64,000 bases of DNA from a virus, in IMG/VR virus record IMGVR_UViG_3300045988_156245; one strand, given 5' to 3'. Both the position numbers and the translations under genes were made by a program. Within the stretch, counting starts at the first letter, position 1; each line of letters starts with the position of its first letter. Below, piece by piece: positions 41,521 to 58,386 of the stretch. Under the pieces are notes generated by a model. That model saw only the letters and a program-made list of their open reading frames with translations, ran no database searches and was not told where the DNA came from.

Positions 41521-41753
41521 TTGCACAAAAATTTTTGAATTGAAACGTTTTTATTTGTGCAATATGCACAATTCCCACAAAGAACATACGTTTGTCAATA
41601 GGCAAATTGCACAAAAATGTGGGGATAAAAACGTTTCAATCCTGTGCAATTTGTACAAATTGCACAAAACAGTTTTAGTGCAATTTTACCAACTTCCGGC
41701 ACTTTGCACAAAAAGTATCAAAAGCTTTAGAGTTATTTTTGTGCAATTTGCAC
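41521..41753. repeat. cluster of at least 8 TTGCACAAA / TTTGTGCAA boxes
   Basis: forward copies at 41521, 41607, 41659, 41704; reverse at 41554, 41644, 41738; variant ttgtacaaa at 41650. Confidence 0.75.
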
Positions 41754-42494: not shown

Positions 42495-42573
42495 AAAGTA
42501 AATGGCTACCTTTGTAGGGTACTACAAAGGTAGCACAATATTAAGAGAACAGACCAGAACGTCCGTTCGGGTC
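42495..42573 (-). ncRNA. candidate antisense small RNA a
   Basis: starts about 7 nt after the minus-strand promoter 42580-42609; GC-rich cggacccgaacggacguuc head; ends at the 13-bp hairpin 42505-42534 followed by uuuuu on the minus strand. Confidence 0.35.
42505..42534. terminator. 13-bp hairpin shared by the plus gene end and antisense RNA a
   Basis: gctacctttgtag/ctacaaaggtagc; the U-run is only on the minus strand. Confidence 0.55.
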
Positions 42574-42579
42574 CGAAAT

Positions 42580-42609
42580 ATTATACCACAAAGTATGTGG
42601 TGTTGTCAA
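42580..42609 (-). promoter_or_regulatory. antisense consensus promoter a
   Basis: reverse complement TTGACA-acaccacatactttgtgg-TATAAT (N18, TGn). Confidence 0.6.
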
Positions 42610-43006: not shown

Positions 43007-43057
43007 TTGAGATTATTTTCAAAAAAGACTTGATAAACTGTATAATTACTAAAATAA

Positions 43058-43147
43058 AGAAAAAAGGGGGGCAACCCCTTTTTATTATTTTAAAAGAAGG
43101 CGAACACCGTTCGAACAGGTGTTCACCCCGAATTCGCAAGGGCACCC
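43058..43147 (-). ncRNA. candidate antisense small RNA b
   Basis: minus-strand promoter 43154-43182; RNA contains the gaacacc/ggtgttc hairpin and ends at the aaaaagggg...ccccttttt hairpin with a U-run. Confidence 0.35.
43061..43086. terminator. bidirectional G/C hairpin with flanking A/T runs
   Basis: aaaaagggggg caa cccctttttatt. Confidence 0.6.
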
Positions 43148-43153
43148 CATTCA

Positions 43154-43182
43154 AGTATATCATATTTCAAAAAGTTTGTCAA
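43154..43182 (-). promoter_or_regulatory. antisense consensus promoter b
   Basis: reverse complement TTGACA-aactttttgaaatatga-TATACT (N17, TGn). Confidence 0.6.
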
Positions 43183-43713: not shown

Positions 43714-43723
43714 AAAGAGGTAA

Positions 43724-43736
43724 GGGGGGGGGGGGG
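43724..43736 (+). repeat. G13 homopolymer tract
   Basis: 13 consecutive G immediately 5' of the ATG at 43737. Confidence 0.9.
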
Positions 43737-43774
43737 ATGAAAAGCCCCCACACAATAAAAAAGAGGTGTTTAAA

Positions 43775-43912
43775 ATGAAACAAAAATATTTTGAAATAGG
43801 TAACCGACTAACAACTGGCTTAGGACTTGAAAATAAAACAGTGATTAAATACTGGAAAGCATACGAAAAAAATAATTTTTTTGTCTGCTGGCTAATATCT
43901 AAAGTGGCATAA
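43775..43912 (+). CDS. small ORF (45 aa) coupled to a 13-codon leader ORF
   Basis: leader ORF 43737-43778 (MKSPHTIKKRCLK) ends in ATGA overlapping the ATG at 43775; aagaggtg RBS; terminator follows. Confidence 0.4.
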   Translation: MKQKYFEIGNRLTTGLGLENKTVIKYWKAYEKNNFFVCWLISKVA

Positions 43913-43964
43913 ATGCCACTTTTTATTTTTGTGCGTTCGGTCTACCCGAACGTACGTTCGGAGC
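43900..43964 (-). ncRNA. candidate antisense small RNA c
   Basis: minus-strand promoter 43971-43999; RNA begins ggcuccgaacguacguucggguagaccgaacgc with mutually exclusive CCGAAC/GUUCGG pairings. Confidence 0.3.
43903..43930 (+). terminator. rho-independent terminator
   Basis: agtggcat/atgccact stem followed by tttttattttt. Confidence 0.6.
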
Positions 43965-43970
43965 CGAAAA

Positions 43971-43999
43971 ATTATATCATATATGTGTCAAGTTGTCAA
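43971..43999 (-). promoter_or_regulatory. antisense consensus promoter c
   Basis: reverse complement TTGACA-acttgacacatatatga-TATAAT (N17, TGn). Confidence 0.6.
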
Positions 44000-44460: not shown

Positions 44461-44740
44461 TGACTAACAGAAGTTAGTCTTGACTAACTGTTATTAGTAT
44501 TATCTAACTATAGTTAGTTTAGTCTAATTTTAATTAGTGATGTCTAACTATGGTTAGTCTAGACTAACTGAAGTTAGAAGTGTCAAACTTTAGTTACTAT
44601 AGGCTAACTTTGATTGGTTGTTTGAAACTCAGGTTAGTATAGGCTAACCGCAGTTAAGTGTTTGAAACTCTTGTTAGGTGTAACTAACCAGAGTTAGTAT
44701 AGGCTAACTCAAATTAGTTATTTGAAACTCTTGTTTTATT
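44461..44740. repeat. array 1: 14 phased 20-bp units with CTAAC-N4-GTTAG palindromes
   Basis: exact 20-bp register from 44461; arms conserved, centres and spacers variable; 40-bp super-period in the right half. Confidence 0.9.
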
Positions 44741-44793: not shown

Positions 44794-44814
44794 CCGAACA
44801 TACGTTCGGGTTTT
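44794..44814 (+). terminator. CCGAAC-atac-GTTCGG terminator
   Basis: 6-bp GC-rich stem plus tttt; identical copy at 49289-49309. Confidence 0.6.
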
Positions 44815-44998
44815 AAACTGATTAAAAAACATCAAGTTGATTGATGTTTTTTATCCCATAAAATAAATCAAGTTAGTTGATGTTTTTTAATCAGTAAAAT
44901 ATATCAAATTCCTTGATATATTTTAATTTGAAATATTTTTATTTATTTTTGTGCAAATTGTACAAAAATTCAATGTAAATTTTGTGCAATATTCCCCC

Positions 44999-47267: not shown

Positions 47268-47705
47268 ATGAGAAAAGTACTTGACAGACAAACTTATGTA
47301 AGAGCAATAGGAGAGAAAGAGTGGCACAGAACTTCAATTTTTAAACATTTATCCTATCAAGAGGAAAAAGAAATTACAATTAAAATAATACAGTATGATA
47401 ATTTTAAAGACACATTAAGATACGTAGAAACAGATGAAATTTATAATGCAGAAATTGATTATACTTTATTTAGAAATAAGCCTTATATTAATATTTATCA
47501 CGCACCTAAATATTCATTAATGGAACGCTCTTACTTCAAAATTACAGAAAAGAATTTTGTTCCTATAGAATTTAAAATTGAATATGAAGAGTGTGAAGAT
47601 ATAAGCCTAGATGCTCTTAAGAGATTACTTACTGCCAAAGAATATTGTGATTTTATAAATGATAATTTAGATACAAAAGTAAAAAATATGTTGTTGAGGG
47701 GTTGA
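47268..47705 (+). CDS. hypothetical protein (145 aa)
   Basis: ORF behind the conserved leader. Confidence 0.6.
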   Translation: MRKVLDRQTYVRAIGEKEWHRTSIFKHLSYQEEKEITIKIIQYDNFKDTLRYVETDEIYNAEIDYTLFRNKPYINIYHAPKYSLMERSYFKITEKNFVPIEFKIEYEECEDISLDALKRLLTAKEYCDFINDNLDTKVKNMLLRG

Positions 47706-47731
47706 CAAAAACCCCTCCCCTATGTTATAAT
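47702..47731 (+). promoter_or_regulatory. promoter of candidate small RNA
   Basis: TTGACA-N18-TGtTATAAT overlapping the stop codon of the 145-aa gene. Confidence 0.55.
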
Positions 47732-47737
47732 TAATAA

Positions 47738-47858
47738 TGGGAATGGAATTTGAATGTAGCAAAGAACAATCTGTTTTTAATTGGTCGGCTCGTGGACATT
47801 GCACCTTATTTCTGTCCACGAGCCGAATTGTGCGTCAGAGTGACGCTTGAAACGTTTT
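47738..47858 (+). ncRNA. candidate small RNA ending in GTGGACA hairpin copy 3
   Basis: no RBS; 14-bp stem tcggctcgtggaca/tgtccacgagccga (47785-47826, loop ttgcaccttatttc), second hairpin gcgtca-gag-tgacgc (47832-47846), U-run 47855-47858. Confidence 0.4.
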
Positions 47859-47953
47859 ATCTTAAAATAAATCAATTTGCTTGACCTTTTTTAATCCCGA
47901 AAAAGTGGTTAAAAATAATCAAGGATTTTGGTAAAAAAGGATAAAAAATATCA

Positions 47954-49136: not shown

Positions 49137-49167
49137 GCAAGTTGCACAAAATGTGACTTGCTTTTTT
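49137..49167 (+). terminator. terminator
   Basis: gcaagt/acttgc stem (loop carries a TTGCACAAA box) then tttttt. Confidence 0.5.
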
Positions 49168-49182
49168 GTGCAAAATTACTAC

Positions 49183-49211
49183 TTGACAAAGTGCGGCGGA
49201 TGTGCTATAAT
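49183..49211 (+). promoter_or_regulatory. promoter of candidate small RNA
   Basis: TTGACA-N17-TATAAT; the -10 context atgtgcTATAAT is identical to the promoter at 53770. Confidence 0.55.
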
Positions 49212-49217
49212 AAAATG

Positions 49218-49309
49218 GGACTCTATAGACTCATATATTTCAGATGTTTGTCGGCTCGTCGATGGTTGAGACGAGCCGAGTTGTCAAGCCGAACATACGT
49301 TCGGGTTTT
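49218..49309 (+). ncRNA. candidate small RNA with hairpin variant copy 4 and CCGAAC terminator
   Basis: 10-bp stem tcggctcgtc/gacgagccga (49251-49279), then ccgaac-atac-gttcgg plus tttt (49289-49309); no RBS. Confidence 0.4.
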
Positions 49310-49385
49310 AAATTGATTAAAATACATCAAGAACCTTGACTTATTTTATCCCATAAAAAACATCAAGTTGATTGATGTATTTTAA

Positions 49386-49640
49386 TCTAACAAAAGTTAG
49401 ACACAACTAATTCTAGTTAGGCTTGACTAACCCCAGTTAGCCTAAACTAACTAAAGTTAGTTACTATTAATTTAAGTTAGCTGTAACTAACTTTTGTTAG
49501 CCACCTCTCATTAAAGTTTTGTTAAACTAATTTTAGTTAGATTGCCCCTAATTCAAGTTAGTTATAACTAACGCAAGTTAGACTTCACAAATAAAAGTTA
49601 GTTAAAACTAACAGCAGTTAGATTAAACTATCGTCATTTT
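49386..49640. repeat. array 2: 13 phased 20-bp units with CTAAC-N4-GTTAG palindromes
   Basis: left arms at 49387, 49407, 49427, 49447, 49467, 49487, 49507, 49527, 49548, 49568, 49588, 49608, 49628; GTTAG arm nearly invariant; alternate units read aACTAAY. Confidence 0.9.
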
Positions 49641-49747
49641 GCACAAAATTTTCAATTGAAAAATTTTGTATGATTGCACAAAAAATAATATCCCCAACCC
49701 CGCATTTTTGTGCAATCTGCTAAAGTTAATTAAAATGATAACAAAGT

Positions 49748-51559: not shown

Positions 51560-51931
51560 ATGACAAACAAAAAAATGACAAAGAGAGATTATTTTAACGG
51601 ACTTTTAGGAGTGATTGAAAATCACAAAGATAGCATTGAGAATTATGAAGATTTTAAGGCTTTCATTGAAAGAGAGATTGAATTACTTAATAAGAAACGT
51701 AGCAATTCAAAACCAACAAAGACACAGATTGAAAATGAAAAAATCAAAGAAAAAATTCTTGAGGTTTTAACAGATGTAAATGAAGTTATGACAATTTCTG
51801 AATTAATGACTGCTGACGGTTTAGAAAATTATTCAAATCAGAAACTTTCAGTTTTATGTCATCAGTTAGTAAATGAGCATAAGGTAGTCAATACCAAAGT
51901 AAAAAAAGTTTCATATTTCAAAATTGCCTAA
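51560..51931 (+). CDS. hypothetical winged-helix-like protein, paralog A
   Basis: 123 aa; shares EIELLNKKRS..KPTKTQIENEKI...MTI.E(L/M)M....L..YSNQKLS.LC with 53238-53633. Confidence 0.6.
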   Translation: MTNKKMTKRDYFNGLLGVIENHKDSIENYEDFKAFIEREIELLNKKRSNSKPTKTQIENEKIKEKILEVLTDVNEVMTISELMTADGLENYSNQKLSVLCHQLVNEHKVVNTKVKKVSYFKIA

Positions 51932-51993
51932 AGGCTATGGGGATAGCCACAAAGGTTATCCCCTTAAAATCTTAAAAAAGGAGTTGATAAAAA

Positions 51994-52362
51994 ATGACTA
52001 AGGCAGAAGAAAAAGCCAAAGAAATTAAAGGTTTAATGGAACGTCATTCTTTAACATTGGAAGAAGCCACCCAACTATGGGAAGAAGATAATTCAGACTA
52101 CTGTAATGAAGAAATGGCAGAAATGGAGAATAAGGCTAAAGCCTTAAAACGCAGGTATGAGAAAGATTTAACAAAAAAACGCAAGCCTACCGAAAGGGAA
52201 CGCAAAGTTGATACAGAAAAACTTGAAATTTTAAATTTAATAGTTCCAACATTACAAACAATTAGTGACAATGTGGAACGCAAGAATGAAGTTGAGTTAC
52301 ATTTTACAAAAGGTGGTAATGATTACACGATTAAATTAATCAAACATCGTAAAAAGAAGTAA
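51994..52362 (+). CDS. hypothetical charged protein (122 aa)
   Basis: aaggag RBS; strong terminator follows. Confidence 0.6.
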   Translation: MTKAEEKAKEIKGLMERHSLTLEEATQLWEEDNSDYCNEEMAEMENKAKALKRRYEKDLTKKRKPTERERKVDTEKLEILNLIVPTLQTISDNVERKNEVELHFTKGGNDYTIKLIKHRKKK

Positions 52363-52372
52363 TGACAACGAG

Positions 52373-52413
52373 TGCAAGTAGTATTCAATACTACTTGCAT
52401 TTTTTATTTTTTT
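52373..52413 (+). terminator. strong rho-independent terminator
   Basis: tgcaagtagta/tactacttgca stem then tttttattttttt. Confidence 0.75.
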
Positions 52414-52580
52414 CAATGTTACATATTGTATGAGTGCGGGGGAGCCGGTATTAGTGACTTTTACCTAAATACAATATGTGATATGTCACGTACTATGTTA
52501 CATATTATAATATGTGATATATCACACGCAAGGTCACATATTACAATATGTGATATGTTACATACAATATGTGACCTTAA
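52405..52580. repeat. cluster of ATATGTGAT / ATCACAT direct and inverted repeats with 7-bp phasing
   Basis: acaatatgtgatatgt(c/t)ac at 52471, 52543, partial 52564; tgtgatatatcaca palindrome 52513-52526; tcacatatt-ac-aatatgtga palindrome 52534-52553. Confidence 0.8.
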
Positions 52581-52590
52581 CAGGACTCAT

Positions 52591-52617
52591 CGCAGCGTTT
52601 CCGGTTGAAACGCTGCG
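52591..52617. other. GC-rich 10-bp hairpin
   Basis: cgcagcgttt/aaacgctgcg, loop ccggttg; lies at the 5' end of the transcript predicted from the antisense promoter 52635-52663. Confidence 0.6.
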
Positions 52618-52634
52618 TGTTTGGGTAATATTTT

Positions 52635-52663
52635 ATTATACCACTTTTTCACTCCGATGTCAA
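52635..52663 (-). promoter_or_regulatory. antisense consensus promoter d
   Basis: reverse complement TTGACA-tcggagtgaaaaagtgg-TATAAT (N17, TGn). Confidence 0.6.
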
Positions 52664-53237: not shown

Positions 53238-53633
53238 ATGGAAAAGATGATAAAGAGAACTAAAAGAGCAATGTATGAAGAAATTATGAAAATGGTAGAG
53301 GGCAAAGAAAGAGTTGCAACCGAAGAAGAAATTATTGCTTTCTGCGAACACGAAATTGAACTCTTAAACAATAAGAGAAGTGGCTCAGGTAAACCAACAA
53401 AGACACAGATTGAAAATGAGAAAATTATGGAAACTATCTATTCAGTTCTTGAAAATGCGGGTGTCGGAATGACAATTACAGAAATGATGAAAACTGATGA
53501 ATTAAATGCTTATTCAAATCAGAAATTATCTGCTCTTTGCAAGAAAATGTATGAAAATGAGAAAATTCAGAAGAAAATCATCAAGAAAAAGTCATTTTTC
53601 GCTGTAAAAGGTGTAGAAATCACTGAAAAGTAG
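53238..53633 (+). CDS. hypothetical winged-helix-like protein, paralog B
   Basis: 131 aa; paralog of 51560-51931. Confidence 0.6.
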   Translation: MEKMIKRTKRAMYEEIMKMVEGKERVATEEEIIAFCEHEIELLNNKRSGSGKPTKTQIENEKIMETIYSVLENAGVGMTITEMMKTDELNAYSNQKLSALCKKMYENEKIQKKIIKKKSFFAVKGVEITEK

Positions 53634-53769
53634 TATAAAAGGGCGAAAAGGGGGCAACATCCTCCCCTTTTTGCCCAAATTGTTTAAAAAATATAAAAAA
53701 ATTAGTAGAAATGCACAAAAATTGTTAAAAAAATACAGTTTTTGTGTATTTTTTTGTGAAAATTTACTA

Positions 53770-53798
53770 TTGACAAATAGTAACAAATGTGCTATAAT
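53770..53798 (+). promoter_or_regulatory. promoter of candidate GC-rich RNA
   Basis: TTGACA-N17-TATAAT (atgtgcTATAAT). Confidence 0.6.
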
Positions 53799-53803
53799 TG
53801 TCG

Positions 53804-53968
53804 GAGCCTGAGCGAGCGACAGGCTCCGAGTCCCAGTCCCATACTCTATATGGCGAATTTTTCTGAGTGTTTGAACTTGCATATTTTTTTCTACCGCGTC
53901 CCGAAATCCTTTACCGGCATCTCCGCATATGGCCGCCAATTCTGAGTGTTTTGAGTCCCCTATTTTTT
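53804..53968 (+). ncRNA. candidate structured non-coding RNA (GC-rich island)
   Basis: about 165 nt, visibly GC-rich against the AT-rich background; 5' hairpin cggagcctg/caggctccg (53802-53828); internal duplication atatggc(c)g..aatt(t)tctgagtgttt(t)ga at 53848 and 53927; ends in tattttttaa; no plausible ORF on the plus strand. Confidence 0.4.
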
Positions 53969-54060
53969 AATTTGATTTTTATAAAAAAATATGATATAAT
54001 AATAAAAAAAGACTAAAATATTCCCGCTGCCTTTCTCCGCCTTATTATAATATTTCTAAT

Positions 54061-54292
54061 GTCTTTTCCATAAAACTATATTTCTAACATTTCCTGCCCG
54101 TTTATCAATAGAATAATATAGCAAAAACTTTTTCTCTCACTTCATTTTTCAGTGTTTATTTTTTCAAGAGTGCAACTTAACAATTTAAGCCTAAAAAATT
54201 TTAGCATTTTTGCTTACTCTAAGTCTTATTCATAAAACTTATATTCTAACATTTTCCGCCAAATCAATAGCACAATAATATAACAAAATTCA
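54061..54292. repeat. pair of ~68-bp imperfect direct repeats in a 350-bp ORF-free gap
   Basis: gtcttttccataaaactatatttctaacatttcctgcccgtttatcaatag... (54061-54128) versus gtcttattcataaaacttatattctaacattttccgccaaatcaatag... (54223-54292). Confidence 0.75.
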
Positions 54293-54310
54293 GTCCACTC
54301 TTCCCAATTG

Positions 54311-54336
54311 AATTTTATAAAAATTTTTAGTATAAT
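54311..54336 (+). promoter_or_regulatory. AT-rich class B promoter with conserved leader
   Basis: ttttataaaaatttttagTATAAT then atatatataagataaagaaag. Confidence 0.5.
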
Positions 54337-54375
54337 ATATATATAAGATAAAGAAAGAAATAAGAGGTAATAAAA

Positions 54376-54777
54376 ATGGTAAAAGATATTTCAACTATGA
54401 TAGCAGAAGGTGCAACAAGAGCAGAAATTATGGCAGTTATTGATGAACAGATTGCCGCACGTGATAGTAAGAGTAAGCGTGCAGAGAATAAGAAAGACAT
54501 TTGTGATATGATGACATCTCTTGAAAACATTTTAGTAAGAGAAGGTATTATTACTGAGGCGGAAAGAACTGACTTTGCGAATGACCCTATAATGGACACC
54601 ATGACTAATGCTTTTATTGAAGCTATGAGAGAAGAAAGAGCATCAGGAAGCTTTATTCCAAAGGTTGGATTTGCTTCTGCTGAAAAACCAAGAGTAAGAG
54701 TAAAAAGAAGTGAAAATAATGAACCTGAAGATATTGATGCGGCAATCAATGACTTCTTAAAGCACTTAAATGATTAA
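54376..54777 (+). CDS. hypothetical acidic protein (133 aa)
   Basis: ORF behind the conserved leader; terminator follows. Confidence 0.6.
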   Translation: MVKDISTMIAEGATRAEIMAVIDEQIAARDSKSKRAENKKDICDMMTSLENILVREGIITEAERTDFANDPIMDTMTNAFIEAMREERASGSFIPKVGFASAEKPRVRVKRSENNEPEDIDAAINDFLKHLND

Positions 54778-54826
54778 ATAGATAGCCTGCATTTTGCAGA
54801 CTATCATATCAAGAGCTAAAGAATTT

Positions 54827-54856
54827 AAGAACTCTAGAAATAGAGTTCTTTTTTTA
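54827..54856 (+). terminator. rho-independent terminator
   Basis: aagaactcta/tagagttctt stem then ttttttt. Confidence 0.7.
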
Positions 54857-54935: not shown

Positions 54936-55140
54936 CACTCTACTTAATTTCACTTAATTTTATATAATTCTACTCAATTTTACTCAGTTTTATTTATTTT
55001 CTGCTCAAATTTTATTTAATCTTTACTTAATCTTACTTATTTTCCACTCAATTTTTTATTTACCTTCACTTAATTTTATCTTATCTACTCTACTTAATTT
55101 AACTTACTTTAATTTTATCTTATCTTTATCCCACTTTCCC
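54936..55140. repeat. degenerate array of about 11 (C/T)ACT(T/C)AATTTTA-like direct repeats
   Basis: ctctacttaattt, cacttaatttta, tactcaatttta, actcagtttta, gctcaaatttta, tacttaat, cttacttatttt, cactcaatttttt, cacttaatttta, tacttaattta, cttactttaatttta at 10-22 bp intervals. Confidence 0.7.
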
Positions 55141-55573: not shown

Positions 55574-55624
55574 GGTTAATTTCAAATCAGCTGAGCGAAG
55601 CGAAGCTAAGATTTGAAATTAACC
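55574..55624. other. perfect 15-bp-stem hairpin
   Basis: ggttaatttcaaatc/gatttgaaattaacc with a 21-nt GC-rich loop. Confidence 0.7.
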
Positions 55625-55681
55625 GTTCATACTATTTTTTAATAGCCTCTATTTTTCAAAAAATCTATTACTATTATTAAG

Positions 55682-55799
55682 GGTAACACTTCATTAACAT
55701 TTTTAATTAAACTTGGTACACTTTATTAACAATCATTTAAGCAAAGTTGGTACACTTTTTTAACATTTATTTAAAATTTTTTGGTACACTTTATTAACA
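55682..55799. repeat. four 17-18-bp iteron-like direct repeats, 33-34 bp phasing
   Basis: ggtaacacttcattaaca 55682, ggtacactttattaaca 55715, ggtacacttttttaaca 55749, ggtacactttattaaca 55783. Confidence 0.85.
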
Positions 55800-55805
55800 T
55801 TTTTC

Positions 55806-56432
55806 TTAAATAATTTTTGTTTTAACTTCTTCTTCATTAAAATTTAAAGTATTATTAACACTGTCTAAATAATATTTAGTTTTATTGCCTTCCATTTGAG
55901 CATGGTATTCAATTAAATCTAATTTTTTTAAAACAAAAAGTATATCTAATATAGTTTGATTACTAGCCCCTTTATTTTTAGTACTTAAACCTAAAATAGC
56001 TTTAATATAGCTTAAAGAAAAAGGTCCAGATTTTTCTTCGTTTTTATACCATATCTTAATTAAAATTGCTAATACAGATAAACTTCTTTCTTTTAATGTA
56101 TTAACTAAAACCCTAACAGTATTAATAGGCAATAGAGTAGCAATATTACTATCTAATACAACTAATTCATACATCTTTACTTCTTCATTATAAATAATAA
56201 GACCACTATCTAATAAATTATGAAAATTTTTTGATGCAGTTTGTCTTGTTATTCCTAATCCTTCTGCAAGATTAACAAATTTACAATCTTCCTTTTTTAC
56301 AAATCTAGCTTCCATATCTGGAAAAGTTACAGAAATAGATTGCAAATAACCATACATTCTGTCTGAATAGGTTCTACTAGATAAATAATGCTTATCACTA
56401 GGCATTTGTCTTGAATTTTTTTCTATTTTCAT
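55806..56432 (-). CDS. double winged-helix DNA-binding protein (RepA-like initiator or repressor candidate)
   Basis: 208 aa; two wHTH-like segments NLAEGLGITRQTASKNFHNLLDSGLIIY and YIKAILGLSTKNKGASNQTILDILFVLKKLDLIEY; flanked by inverted iteron arrays. Confidence 0.45.
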   Translation of the reverse strand: MKIEKNSRQMPSDKHYLSSRTYSDRMYGYLQSISVTFPDMEARFVKKEDCKFVNLAEGLGITRQTASKNFHNLLDSGLIIYNEEVKMYELVVLDSNIATLLPINTVRVLVNTLKERSLSVLAILIKIWYKNEEKSGPFSLSYIKAILGLSTKNKGASNQTILDILFVLKKLDLIEYHAQMEGNKTKYYLDSVNNTLNFNEEEVKTKII

Positions 56433-57276: not shown

Positions 57277-58386
57277 ATGACAACTATTATACAAACTGGA
57301 ACTAAATATGATTTATATGATTCAAGTATACAGACACATCAGTCTTTACCTGCGGGAATCTATAAGGTAACTTTTAACCCTCAGTCAGGACATCAATTAT
57401 TATATGTTGCGGATAAGAATGATATTAAAGAAAAAATTTATGGCGTTCATACAAAGAAAGTTGAAAAAGTATTAAATACATTTCGTAACTTCAATAGAAG
57501 CGAAGGAGTGTTATTAAGCGGCGATAAAGGTATTGGTAAATCTTTATTCACTAAATTATTAACAAATGCGGTAATTGATATGGGATTACCAGTTATTTAT
57601 GTTAATGAAGCTAGTCCAAATTTAGGGGATTATATTGATAGTATTCCTACTGAATGTATGATTTTATTTGATGAATTTGATAAAACTTTTAGTTCTCCTT
57701 ATGAACAAAATGATTTATTATCACTTTTTGACGGAACTTCTCGTAATAAAAAGTTATTTGTAATTACTTGTAATAATTTAGATAGCCTTAGTTCATTTTT
57801 GGTAAATAGACCAGGAAGATTTCATTATCATATCTGCTTTAAATATCCTACATCAGAAGATATTGTAAAATATTTAAAAGATAAGTTAGATGAAAAATAT
57901 TGGGGCGAGATACCAAAAGTAGTAAAGCGAGCAACCGCAATTAAAACAAACTATGATACTTTAAGAGCAATAGCTTATGAACTTCAGCAAGGTTGGTCTT
58001 TTGAAGAAGCAATAGAAGATTTAAACATTGATAAAGGTAATAAAACAATTTATTTTAATATATGCTATACGCAAAAAAATAAAGAACGTCATAGTCTTAA
58101 AGTACCATTTGTTCCTTCTAAAGTAGAAGCGGAAAAGGTAAAATTATCACTTACAGATAAATTGGGAAATTTTATTGGTGAAGCAATATTTTCTACTGAT
58201 GATTTTTACTTTGATATAAATGATAATGATTTTAAACTTAATATAGAAAAAGCAACTTATCAGTTTAGCACAATTAAACGTGGTATATATATGTCACAGG
58301 ATGGAGAAGAAATTGTAACTGACAAAGACAAAGAAAATGCAGTTATCACTGAAATTGTTATTACCAATATATCAGAAGATTTTTGA
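57277..58386 (+). CDS. classic-clade AAA ATPase
   Basis: 369 aa; Walker A LLSGDKGIGKS, Walker B MILFDEFD, sensor-1 VITCNN, SRH NRPGRFHY; about 130-aa C-terminal domain of unknown type. Confidence 0.75.
   Translation: MTTIIQTGTKYDLYDSSIQTHQSLPAGIYKVTFNPQSGHQLLYVADKNDIKEKIYGVHTKKVEKVLNTFRNFNRSEGVLLSGDKGIGKSLFTKLLTNAVIDMGLPVIYVNEASPNLGDYIDSIPTECMILFDEFDKTFSSPYEQNDLLSLFDGTSRNKKLFVITCNNLDSLSSFLVNRPGRFHYHICFKYPTSEDIVKYLKDKLDEKYWGEIPKVVKRATAIKTNYDTLRAIAYELQQGWSFEEAIEDLNIDKGNKTIYFNICYTQKNKERHSLKVPFVPSKVEAEKVKLSLTDKLGNFIGEAIFSTDDFYFDINDNDFKLNIEKATYQFSTIKRGIYMSQDGEEIVTDKDKENAVITEIVITNISEDF

What the first reader, a model, noticed from the sequence alone, without database searches (positions are those of the whole stretch)
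53770..53968. GC-rich ~165-nt transcription unit with internal duplication and no ORF
A perfect TTGACA-N17-TATAAT promoter is followed by a segment that is conspicuously GC-rich for this genome. Its -10 context atgtgcTATAAT is identical to that of the small-RNA promoter at 49183. The segment has a 9-bp 5' hairpin cggagcctg/caggctccg and repeated gagtccc. It also has a duplicated block, atatggcgaatttttctgagtgtttga (53848) and atatggccgccaattctgagtgttttga (53927), and then a T-run. The only long ORF over it (115 aa, minus strand) runs through the promoter and the preceding terminator hairpin and looks spurious. This is a candidate structured RNA of unknown class. It is followed by 350 bp of additional ORF-free DNA containing a class B promoter-like element and two ~68-bp direct repeats (54061-54128 and 54223-54292).
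Basis: seen in the sequence. Interest (0 to 1): 0.65.

Follow-up and report, generated by a model that had tools for sequence, protein, structure and literature searches.

The report
Conserved noncoding RNA leader in gut phage
A strong early promoter in an uncultured gut phage drives a conserved, non-protein-coding, cytosine-rich RNA segment that starts with a stable hairpin; it is a real element of no described RNA family, but it has no conserved end of its own and its job is still unknown.

Summary
The sequence features are all present: a perfect TTGACA-N17-TGnTATAAT promoter, a GC island (41-49% against 20-30%), a 10-bp hairpin at the predicted 5' end, a duplicated block, and no credible ORF.

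The window is an SPbeta-like phage of a gut Firmicute. The element occurs in about 20 near-identical metagenomic relatives and in a diverged second lineage (L054, L095, L100, L101, L120). There the hairpin keeps pairing through three compensatory changes and one G.U. Module spacing (69 nt and 19 nt) is identical in both lineages, and the block duplication persists. The flanking genes differ, and the downstream proteins share no BLASTP similarity.

Within the window's lineage the first ~80 nt are about five times less polymorphic than codon third positions. The 3' half evolves at roughly that third-position rate, and the T-run tail is hypervariable and absent in L095. So this is not a terminator-bounded 165-nt gene. 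It is the conserved 5' module of an untranslated, pyrimidine-rich early transcript that runs into two further promoters.

No Rfam family matches. Best reading: a hairpin-capped, C-rich regulatory RNA, either UCCC-type pairing or a cis leader. The mechanism is inferred, and my target tests were negative. It is one of at least seven such noncoding units in this early region.

The parts
53641..53676 (+). Intrinsic terminator of the upstream 131-aa gene. It insulates the unit from upstream transcription.
   Evidence: 14-bp stem, 8 G-C pairs. Its position is conserved in both lineages.
53709..53761 (.). Operator-like TTTTGTGCA-type motifs just upstream of the -35: 53711-53720 (-), 53740-53749 (+), 53752-53761 (+). 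They form inverted repeats.
   Evidence: (I3, I4, I14). Fifteen exact TTTTGTGCAA copies all lie in 41.5-52.7 kb next to promoters. The same motif abuts the -35 in L054, L095 and L100.
53770..53798 (+). Promoter P1, TTGACA-N17-(TG)TATAAT.
   Evidence: Both hexamers and the TG are kept in nearly all relatives and in the second lineage (L109 reads TATCAT).
53801..53829 (+). 5' hairpin: 10 bp (53801-53810 with 53820-53829) and a 9-nt loop. It starts about 3 nt from the predicted transcription start.
   Evidence: three pairs with compensatory changes between lineages, one G.U in L095 and L101, 98.9% of cells paired. pi = 0 among 8 relatives.
53830..53847 (+). Unpaired C-rich linker GUCCCAGUCCCAUACUCU. 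The core UCCC-R-Y-AC is kept in both lineages.
   Evidence: Predicted unpaired probability is 0.79-0.98 in the window, L054 and L100, and 0.40-0.59 in L119.
53846..53855 (+). 5' strand of the long-range helix (CU-AUAUG-(G)-CG). It overlaps the start of block 1.
   Evidence: it pairs with 53924-53932. One compensatory pair (C-G to A-U), 93.8% of cells paired. The centre is the self-complementary CAUAUG.
53848..53876 (+). Block 1: ATATGGCGAATTTTTCTGAGTGTTTGAAC, first copy of the internal duplication.
   Evidence: D2. The words ATATG, TTTTTC and TGTTTGAA are invariant in both lineages. pi for linker plus block 1 is 0.010.
53899..53906 (+). Nearly invariant word UCCCGAAA, at a fixed distance from the hairpin (69 nt) and from block 2 (19 nt).
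53924..53932 (+). 3' strand of the long-range helix (CG-CAUAU-GG).
53927..53954 (+). Block 2: ATATGGCCGCCAATTCTGAGTGTTTTGA, second copy. In the second lineage its TGTTTGA is the -35 of the next promoter.
53955..53970 (+). Tail with the T-run. It is not conserved and is not a terminator.
   Evidence: pi = 0.14 with indels. Absent from the second lineage; L095 has no T-run. No terminator call.
53972..54000 (+). Promoter P2, TTGATT-17-(TG)TATAAT, directly after the element.
   Evidence: D3: P2 and P3 are 73% identical copies. Present in the second lineage.
54001..54307 (+). ORF-free, pyrimidine- and C-rich spacer. It holds two 66-nt direct repeats (54061-54126, 54223-54288) and a third half-copy of the block (54143-54157).
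   Evidence: (GC skew down to -0.6).
54308..54375 (+). Promoter P3 (TTGAAT-17-TATAAT) and a polypurine leader AUAAGAUAAAGAAAGAAAUAAGAGG.
   Evidence: six near-exact copies of the leader word elsewhere in the window; this one is a looser variant. pi = 0.007.
54376..54777 (+). Downstream early gene (133 aa, no family match). The first intrinsic terminator after P1 follows it at 54827-54850.
   Evidence: There is no BLASTP similarity to the gene at the same position in L054.

Best explanation
The segment is a non-coding RNA element. It is the conserved 5' module (about 53800-53950) of an untranslated early transcript. Host sigma-A RNA polymerase makes it from a consensus promoter that is probably repressor-controlled.

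The RNA has these parts:
- A 10-bp GC hairpin within about 3 nt of the predicted 5' end. I infer it works as a 5'-end protective cap against 5'-dependent decay, as in Firmicute mRNAs and sRNAs.
- A 17-20-nt unpaired C-rich tract (core UCCC-R-Y-AC) directly after the hairpin.
- A helix formed by two CAUAUG-containing repeat blocks. It closes a ~70-nt pyrimidine-rich loop that carries the invariant UCCCGAAA.

The mechanism I consider most likely is that the exposed C-rich tracts base-pair with G-rich sequences, such as Shine-Dalgarno regions, of host or phage mRNAs. This is how the UCCC-class sRNAs of Firmicutes (RsaE/RoxS, RNAIII) work.

The element has no terminator of its own. The active species would be either a processed or prematurely ended 5' fragment, or the long leader itself.

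Shown:
- promoter;
- non-coding status;
- conservation and purifying selection on the 5' 80 nt;
- hairpin covariation;
- fixed spacing;
- independence from neighbouring genes.

Inferred:
- transcription start;
- stabiliser role of the hairpin;
- pairing function and targets.
For: - Promoter: perfect with an extended -10, kept in both lineages.
- Conservation outlasts the neighbours.
  - Model R1 finds L054 at 46 bits, E 8e-8, and L095, L100, L101 and L120.
  - The downstream proteins share no BLASTP similarity.
  - The gene immediately upstream is of a different kind.
- Spacing is identical in both lineages: hairpin to UCCCGAAA 69 nt, UCCCGAAA to CAUAUGG 19 nt.
- Hairpin: three compensatory pairs plus one G.U. 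In all, 96.5% of cells pair against 85% in shuffles and 23-44% when partners are slid.
- Polymorphism (pi):
  - hairpin 0;
  - linker plus block 1 0.010;
  - codon position 3 of the flanking genes 0.05-0.06;
  - 3' half 0.046-0.056.
- Not coding: start codon lost in L001, frameshifting indels in L005 and L098, frame not conserved between lineages, no Shine-Dalgarno sequence.
- The C-rich tracts are predicted unpaired in both lineages, less clearly in L119.
- The + strand here is pyrimidine-rich, while the surrounding + strand genes are purine-rich. That argues for selection on the transcript rather than on double-stranded DNA.
- Published precedent: a 5' hairpin plus unpaired UCCC motifs that target Shine-Dalgarno sequences (PMC2790875).
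Against: - There is no conserved terminator or defined 3' end.
- UCCC counts are not enriched beyond local composition (P = 0.05, 0.13 and 0.73 in three sequences).
- The linker pairs with phage translation-initiation regions no better than shuffled linkers do.
- The whole W-lineage RNA is not more stable than shuffles.
- There are effectively only two independent lineages, so the covariation rests on few events.
- The centre of the long-range helix is a self-complementary word that would also be conserved as a DNA site.
- The host and host targets are unknown. There are no expression data.
Confidence: 0.4

Rival explanations
1. It is a purely cis-acting leader. P1, P2 and P3 are three tandem promoters for the downstream early gene. 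The element is the head of a ~570-nt untranslated, C-rich, G-poor, unstructured leader. That leader sets mRNA stability through the 5' hairpin. It may also serve as a Rho loading (rut-like) region, so that P1 transcripts are attenuated before the gene unless conditions change.
For: - No intrinsic terminator lies between P1 and the end of the gene in either lineage.
- The layout P1-element-P2-spacer-P3-gene is kept in both lineages.
- In the second lineage the P2 -35 overlaps block 2.
- C is 26-31% against G 12-17% after the hairpin, and mostly unpaired. GC skew falls to -0.6 downstream.
Against: - The regulated gene is not detectably the same in the two lineages.
- The leader does not pair with its own translation-initiation region better than shuffles do.
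- Purifying selection is concentrated in the first 80 nt rather than along the leader.
- P3 already has its own short polypurine leader.
- The Rho dependence of this host is unknown.
Confidence: 0.27
2. It is a DNA-level regulatory array. The palindrome at +3 to +30, the two CATATG-containing blocks and the TTTTGTGCA motifs are binding sites for phage or host proteins that control the tandem promoters. In this reading the palindrome is an operator placed like the LexA boxes behind other promoters in this region, and the RNA is incidental.
For: - LexA-type boxes sit in the same promoter-proximal position in three other units.
- TTTTGTGCA motifs flank P1.
- CATATG is a palindrome.
- Block 2 overlaps the P2 -35 in the second lineage.
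- Fixed spacing suits a nucleoprotein complex.
- Arm covariation is also what an evolving palindromic operator would show.
Against: - The related hairpins differ.
  - U4 has 13-bp arms and a 16-nt loop.
  - U5 has 9-bp arms and a 9-nt loop.
  - The L lineage can extend to 13 bp with a 3-nt loop.
  - The arm geometry and loops differ while complementarity is kept, which is hairpin behaviour and not fixed half-site spacing.
- A G.U variant is tolerated.
- The strong strand asymmetry in composition is unexplained by double-stranded DNA sites.
Confidence: 0.2
3. It encodes a small peptide: 31 aa MANFSECL... from 53850, or the 115-aa minus-strand ORF.
For: ORFs exist. The second lineage has a 36-aa ORF starting at the equivalent ATG, with M-x-x-F-x-x-C-L in common.
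Against: - There is no Shine-Dalgarno sequence.
- The start codon is ATG to CTG in L001.
- 1-nt indels occur in L005 and L098.
- The conserved TCCCGAAA is read in different frames in the two lineages.
- The minus-strand ORF has no counterpart of 50 aa or more in L054. It overlaps a terminator and a promoter.
Confidence: 0.03
4. It is a decaying remnant or selfish fragment with no present function, carried along by recent common descent.
For: Most relatives are 96-100% identical overall, and only two lineages are known.
Against: - The 5' 80 nt are about five times less polymorphic than codon third positions in the same genomes.
- The element survives, with exact spacing and compensatory changes, in a lineage where the neighbouring genes are unrecognisable.
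Confidence: 0.1

Closest known systems
UCCC / C-rich-region sRNAs of Firmicutes (RsaE/RoxS, other Rsa RNAs, RNAIII loops)
   Same: - A hairpin at the 5' end.
- C-rich (UCCC) tracts in unpaired regions.
- Firmicute sigma-A promoter.
- About 100-170 nt and no ORF.
- PMC2790875 describes exactly this signature and its pairing with Shine-Dalgarno sequences.
   Different: - No match to any Rfam family, RsaE included, even in the permissive E-value scans (E up to 10 for the window, up to 1 for L054).
- No classical 3' terminator.
- UCCC is not enriched beyond composition.
- It is phage-borne.
- No targets were found.
5'-terminal stabiliser hairpins of Bacillus mRNAs, and the 5' stabiliser of phage SP82 early RNA (own knowledge)
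   Same: A strong GC hairpin a few nucleotides from the predicted 5' end of a phage early transcript. Polypurine leader words follow other early promoters in the same genome.
   Different: - A stabiliser role does not explain the conserved linker, the blocks or the fixed spacing.
- The related hairpins in U4 and U5 lie 40-55 nt inside their units.
- The 5' end is not mapped.
Promoter-proximal antitermination RNAs of lambdoid phages (lambda nut boxA/boxB, HK022 put) (own knowledge)
   Same: A hairpin-containing RNA element directly downstream of early promoters, with C-rich untranslated RNA nearby (as with the rut sites around nutR). It would act in cis on a long early transcript.
   Different: - No sequence or structure match.
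- The loop sequence is not conserved (AGCGAGCGA against GCCGAUGGU), which argues against a boxB-like protein-recognition loop.
- No N-like or Q-like gene was identified.
- No downstream terminators to override were found before the gene.
Rho-dependent leader attenuators (rut sites)
   Same: Untranslated RNA with C greater than G, weakly structured, longer than 80 nt and with no intrinsic terminator.
   Different: There is no evidence for Rho action. The conserved words and helices are not features of rut sites.

Membership tests
RsaE/RoxS (Rfam RsaE) and other described RNA families | Match to the family covariance model | tested here: not met
   Rfam 15 at gathering thresholds gives 0 hits in the whole window. 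E-value mode on 53600-54400 and on L054 5400-5950 gives only chance-level hits outside the element.
UCCC-class base-pairing sRNA (functional class) | C-rich/UCCC motif in an unpaired, conserved region | tested here: met
   The linker UCCC-R-Y-AC and UCCCGAAA are kept in both lineages. Unpaired probability is mostly 0.5-0.98, with 0.40 for one linker motif in L119. The motif count is not above composition.
UCCC-class base-pairing sRNA (functional class) | Complementarity to Shine-Dalgarno regions of target mRNAs | tested here: inconclusive
   Phage translation-initiation regions pair no better than with shuffled linkers. The host genome is unknown, so host targets could not be tested.
Stand-alone sRNA gene | Own promoter | tested here: met
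   12/12 consensus with TG, conserved.
Stand-alone sRNA gene | Own intrinsic terminator or defined 3' end | tested here: not met
   There are no terminator-like sites at 53700-54820 on the + strand, or at L054 5457-6393. The T-run is variable and absent in L095.
Structured RNA | Conserved secondary structure with covariation | tested here: inconclusive
   The hairpin is well supported. The long-range helix has one clear compensatory pair. There are only two lineages. The overall fold z is +1.1 for the window and -3.0 for L054, the latter mostly from the hairpin.
5'-terminal stabiliser hairpin | Stem within a few nucleotides of the actual 5' end of the RNA | not testable with these tools
   The predicted start, 6-8 nt after the -10, would put the stem 0-3 nt from the end. 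No transcription-start data are available.
Protein-coding small gene | ORF, start codon and frame conserved among relatives | tested here: not met
   Start codon lost in L001, frameshifts in L005 and L098, and the frame differs between lineages.
LexA-regulated unit (like neighbouring units U1-U3 and U5) | CGAAC-N4-GTTCG box near the promoter | tested here: not met
   Five boxes occur in the window (42556, 43112, 43947, 44795, 49290). None lies in 53700-54400.

The most novel reading that the evidence does not exclude
The element is one member of a previously undescribed set of at least seven small noncoding transcription units in the early region of gut SPbeta-like phages. All are driven by consensus host promoters. 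Several are gated by LexA boxes, and all lie near a shared TTTTGTGCAA operator. Together they would form an RNA-based layer of host takeover or lysis-lysogeny control. Within it, this unit would act as a phage-made mimic of the C-rich RsaE/RoxS-type riboregulators, or as a decoy for a C-rich-RNA-binding host factor such as Rho. Either way it would reprogramme host translation or termination early in infection.
Probability: 0.15. Interest if true: 0.7.

Novelty: new member of a known kind. Interest (0 to 1): 0.4.

Why it matters
Regulatory RNAs of phages that infect gut Firmicutes are almost unexplored. These phages are known only from metagenomes. This element is a clean candidate. It has a consensus promoter and is provably non-coding. 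It is under purifying selection and is more conserved than the genes around it.

If it is a pairing regulator or an attenuator, it would show how an abundant class of large temperate gut phages controls early expression or manipulates its host. The covariance model and the set of sister units give a concrete starting point for metatranscriptome mapping and for experiments once a host is found.

If it is only a leader, it is an ordinary, if neatly conserved, piece of phage promoter architecture.

Tried and rejected
- **Rfam.** Gathering mode on the whole window, and E-value mode on the element, on L054 and on 42.3-49.5 kb, gave nothing credible. There are no tRNA or tmRNA genes.
- **Global thermodynamic structure.** Not better than shuffles on either strand in the window.
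- **Trans targets among phage genes.** The linker pairs with 97 translation-initiation regions no better than shuffled linkers do (minimum energy P = 0.13; mean no different).
- **Cis anti-Shine-Dalgarno pairing.** The 534-nt leader against the initiation region of the downstream gene was not better than shuffles in the window (0.24) or L054 (0.75) (one search timed out).
- **UCCC enrichment over dinucleotide shuffles.** Weak or absent.
- **Pairing with the 49183 unit.** GAGUCCCA in U7 is complementary to UGGGACUC at the 5' end of the 49183 unit. This is only 8 bp, the word count is not significant, and no 49183-unit homologue was found in the second lineage to test co-variation.
- **A third lineage.**
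  - A CCGCCTCCCC match in 15 other phage loci proved to lie in generally C-rich DNA with many ORFs, judged from one locus (L058). It is not homologous.
  - Three further pattern scans of viral contigs and model R3 over about 80 related loci found no third lineage.
  - Chance hits L080 and L096 were discarded.
- **Terminator-antiterminator switch.** The block 2 hairpin CAUAUGGC/GCCGCAUG plus U-run is plausible in L054. It is absent in the window's lineage and weakened in L100.
- **Blocks as a minus-strand promoter (TCAAAC-N17-CATATR).** Poor hexamers, and the spacing is not kept in the U5 copy.
- **Other identities considered and dropped:** CRISPR-like mini-array, ToxI-like repeats, retron or bridge RNA, attP. 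There are no partner genes nearby and the repeat geometry is wrong.
- **Neighbouring proteins.** PHROGs, Pfam and PDB sequence searches were uninformative.
- **Host.** An exact-protein look-up found only metagenomic runs. The MAG labels disagree (Oscillospiraceae for L119, Erysipelotrichaceae for L120), and both contigs are short.

Full report
**What the window is.** The window is an AT-rich (about 30% GC) phage genome segment.
- Its large terminase is 47% identical to that of Enterococcus phage H1. It also resembles the SPbeta/YonF-type terminases of Bacillus, Geobacillus and Brevibacillus phages.
- The only GenBank phage records that match at the DNA or near-identical protein level are unannotated human-faecal scaffolds.
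- Genes from about 40 to 54.8 kb are small, lie on the + strand, and mostly have no family match. They are preceded by consensus sigma-A promoters. This is an early region of an SPbeta-like phage of a gut Firmicute.

**Checking the observation.** Every listed sequence feature is present.
- The promoter TTGACA-17-TATAAT at 53770-53798 is a 12/12 match with a TG extended -10.
- Its atgtgcTATAAT context equals that of the 49183 promoter.
- GC rises to 0.41-0.49 over 53750-53950, against 0.18-0.30 around it.
- The inverted repeat is 10 bp with a 9-nt loop (53801-53810 / 53820-53829).
- The internal duplication is 42 nt at 71% identity (53848-53889 and 53927-53968).
- The downstream 66-nt repeats are 73% identical.
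- The 115-aa minus-strand ORF overlaps the upstream terminator (53641-53676) and the promoter.

Three points weaken the stated picture.
- The word GAGTCCC is not statistically unusual.
- No terminator-like hairpin precedes the T-run.
- The 165-nt RNA does not fold better than shuffles on either strand (z +1.1 and +0.5).

**Known families.** Rfam 15 gives no hit at gathering thresholds anywhere in the window, and only chance-level hits around the element in permissive mode. There are no tRNA or tmRNA genes.

**Relatives.** The downstream protein and the exact hairpin recover six IMG/VR contigs plus MT835855. In these the element is nearly invariant.

I then fetched 80 loci around relatives of the nearby AAA ATPase (57277-58386) and searched them with a covariance model of the element (R1).
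- One diverged homologue appeared: L054 5506-5670, 46 bits, E 8e-8.
- Patterns built on words shared by the two versions then found L095 in IMG/VR.
- They also found ten more close relatives plus L100 and L101 in metagenomes, and L119 and L120 in GTDB MAG contigs.
- All other pattern hits were chance matches.
- Further scans and a two-lineage model (R3) found no third lineage.

**What the two lineages share.** The order of parts is the same in both:
1. a terminator;
2. a TTTTGTGCA-type motif abutting the -35;
3. a perfect P1 with the junction TATAAT-TGTCGG;
4. a hairpin;
5. CCGA(G/A)UCC and a C-rich linker with the core UCCC-R-Y-AC;
6. block 1, (Y)AUAUG...UUUUUYS...RUGUUUGAA;
7. a pyrimidine-rich stretch with the nearly invariant UCCCGAAA;
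8. block 2, CAUAUGGCCGC...UGUUUGA;
9. a second promoter P2;
10. a 170-300-nt C/U-rich spacer;
11. a third promoter P3 with a polypurine leader;
12. a small gene.

The distance from the hairpin to UCCCGAAA (69 nt) and from there to CAUAUGG (19 nt) is identical in both lineages, although much of the intervening sequence differs.

The neighbouring genes are not conserved to the same degree.
- The downstream proteins share no BLASTP similarity.
- The gene immediately upstream belongs to a different family in the two lineages.

So the element is more conserved than its neighbours.

**Structure.** RNAalifold on nine representative sequences predicts two helices.
- The hairpin has three pairs with compensatory double changes (A-U/C-G, C-G/G-C, G-C/C-G) and a G.U in L095 and L101.
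- The second helix joins 53846-53855 to 53924-53932. It is built around the two self-complementary CAUAUG words, with one clear compensatory pair (C-G to A-U).
- Counted on the alignment, 96.5% of cells pair. This compares with 85% in column shuffles (0 of 500 reach it) and 23-44% when partners are slid.
- There are effectively two lineages, so these are few independent events. I rate the hairpin as established and the second helix as plausible.
- Loop sequences are not conserved (AGCGAGCGA against GCCGAUGGU). That argues against a loop-specific protein site.
- The same hairpin type, with the flanks TTG(G)TCGG...CCGA(G/A)T, recurs at 49244-49288 and 47777-47835 with different stem and loop lengths. 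That is hairpin behaviour, not fixed-spacing operator behaviour.

**Selection.** Pairwise diversity (pi) was measured among eight close relatives.

| Region | pi |
|---|---|
| hairpin | 0 |
| linker + block 1 | 0.010 |
| middle | 0.056 |
| block 2 | 0.046 |
| tail with the T-run | 0.14 (with indels) |
| codon position 3 of the flanking genes | 0.05-0.06 |

The first ~80 nt are therefore constrained. The 3' half evolves at about the rate of codon third positions. The supposed 3' end is the least conserved part: it is missing from the second lineage, and L095 has no T-run at all.

**Coding potential.**
- The 31-aa ORF from 53850 has no Shine-Dalgarno sequence.
- It loses its start codon in L001 (ATG to CTG).
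- It is frameshifted by 1-nt indels in L005 and L098.
- It reads TCCCGAAA in a different frame from the 36-aa ORF at the same place in L054.
- The 115-aa minus-strand ORF has no counterpart of 50 aa or more in L054.
The element is non-coding.

**Boundaries.** No intrinsic terminator lies between P1 and the terminator after the downstream gene (54827-54850; L054 6394-6420) in either lineage. P1 transcripts therefore probably run on through P2 and P3, unless they are processed or ended by a factor. In the second lineage the TGTTTGA of block 2 is itself the -35 of P2. The element is best described as the conserved 5' module of a long, untranslated, pyrimidine-rich early transcript, not as a 165-nt gene.

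**Mechanism.** These points are shown:
- a consensus host-type promoter with operator-like motifs upstream;
- a covarying hairpin at the predicted 5' end;
- an unpaired C-rich tract (unpaired probability mostly 0.5-0.98, lower in L119);
- strand-specific pyrimidine richness, opposite to the purine-rich coding strand around it.

These features match the signature that Geissmann et al. described for staphylococcal sRNAs: a 5' hairpin for stability and unpaired UCCC motifs that bind Shine-Dalgarno sequences (PMC2790875). I therefore rank a hairpin-capped, C-rich pairing RNA first (0.4).

My own tests do not support it further.
- UCCC is not enriched beyond composition.
- The linker pairs with phage initiation regions no better than shuffled linkers do.
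- Host targets cannot be tested without a host genome.

The rivals, in order:
- A purely cis-acting leader (stability, or Rho-type attenuation) is nearly as good (0.27). It explains the missing terminator and the conserved three-promoter layout. It does not explain why the regulated gene is interchangeable. Leader-to-initiation-region pairing is also no better than chance.
- A DNA-level operator array is the third option (0.2). It is suggested by the LexA boxes that occupy the same promoter-proximal position in sister units.
- A peptide, and junk, are unlikely.

**Comparison with known systems and novelty.** It works most like the UCCC-class sRNAs or like a promoter-proximal phage leader. It is not a member of RsaE/RoxS or of any Rfam family. 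It fails the terminator criterion for a stand-alone sRNA gene. I class it as a new member of a known kind (phage noncoding regulatory RNA or leader), found so far in two small lineages of uncultured gut phages.

Interest is moderate (0.4). The element is real and under selection, and it belongs to an intriguing set of at least seven promoter-driven noncoding units. But there is nothing mechanistically unprecedented yet, and there are no expression data.

Noticed in passing
window 42556-42569, 43112-43125, 43947-43960, 44795-44808, 49290-49303: Five Gram-positive LexA (Cheo) boxes CGAAC-N4-GTTCG: three exact and two with one mismatch, against 0.1 expected. Three sit 5-40 nt downstream of perfect minus-strand promoters (42609, 43182, 43999). 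One forms the terminator-like hairpin of the 49183 unit. This suggests SOS-gated small transcripts.
   Followed up: partly
window 42495-42609(-), 43055-43182(-), 43900-43999(-), 47702-47860(+), 49183-49310(+), 52370-52663(-): Six further short ORF-free units lie directly behind perfect or near-perfect TTGACA-N17/18-TATAAT promoters. The four minus-strand ones run antisense into the bidirectional terminators of + strand genes. The units at 47702 and 49183 share the hairpin type TTG(G)TCGGCTCGT...ACGAGCCGA(R)T with the finding. There are no Rfam matches.
   Followed up: partly
window 41521-41746, 43212, 43310, 44947-44989, 49142-49715, 52672 (variants 53711, 53752): TTTTGTGCAA occurs 15 times exactly. 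All copies lie within 41.5-52.7 kb, often as inverted pairs next to promoters. Three noncoding-unit promoters share TTTTTGTG(C/A)AAA(A)TTACTA directly upstream of the -35. This is probably the operator of a phage master repressor, comparable in idea to the SPBRE repeats of SPbeta.
   Followed up: partly
window 49383-49630 and 44472-44696: Two arrays of 20-nt iterons built on AACTAAC...AGTTAG (about 4-7 copies each; 40-nt and 80-nt higher-order periods at 44.5 kb). They look like replication origins. The 49183 unit fires directly into the first array.
   Followed up: no
window 52470-52580: 2.7 copies of a 36-nt unit full of ATATGTGATAT/TCACATAT palindromes, inside the minus-strand unit that starts at 52663. 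It looks like a multi-site operator.
   Followed up: no
window 54941-55130 and 55686-55819: A 10-11-bp periodic TACTTAATTT array (about 14 copies) lies between convergent genes. Three 34-nt repeats TTGGTACACTTTATTAACA... lie upstream of the 208-aa HTH/ScpB-like gene (55806-56432, minus strand). These may be bent-DNA, partition or binding sites.
   Followed up: no
window 55575-55625; L004 about 2900-2960 of alignment A3: A long AT-rich hairpin whose loop is GCTGAGCGAAGCGAAGCTAA. It contains the GCGAAGC word known (own knowledge) to form an extra-stable DNA mini-hairpin. A different stem carries the same loop in relative L004. The loop of the finding's hairpin (GAGCGAGCGA) is similar.
   Followed up: no
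window 42742, 43388, 45034, 47240, 47988, 63466 (looser variant at 54345): The polypurine leader word ATAAGATAAAG(G/A)AAAG follows many early promoters: 6 matches against 0.05 expected. It is reminiscent of the polypurine 5' stabiliser of phage SP82 early RNA (own knowledge).
   Followed up: partly
window 51560-52362 and 53238-53633; L054 3222-4062 and 4400-5393: Paralogous small-gene modules precede the noncoding units at 52663 and 53770 in both lineages. Each has an HTH-like protein with the motif KPTKTQ(I/K)EN. All but the window's second module (53238-53633) also carry a protein ending KHRKKK. They are possible partners of the hairpins or palindromes. There are no family or PDB matches.
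   Followed up: partly
window 43723-43740: A homopolymer run of about 13 G lies just before a start codon (aggtaaGGGGGGGGGGGGGatg). It could be a slippage-prone tract affecting the next gene.
   Followed up: no
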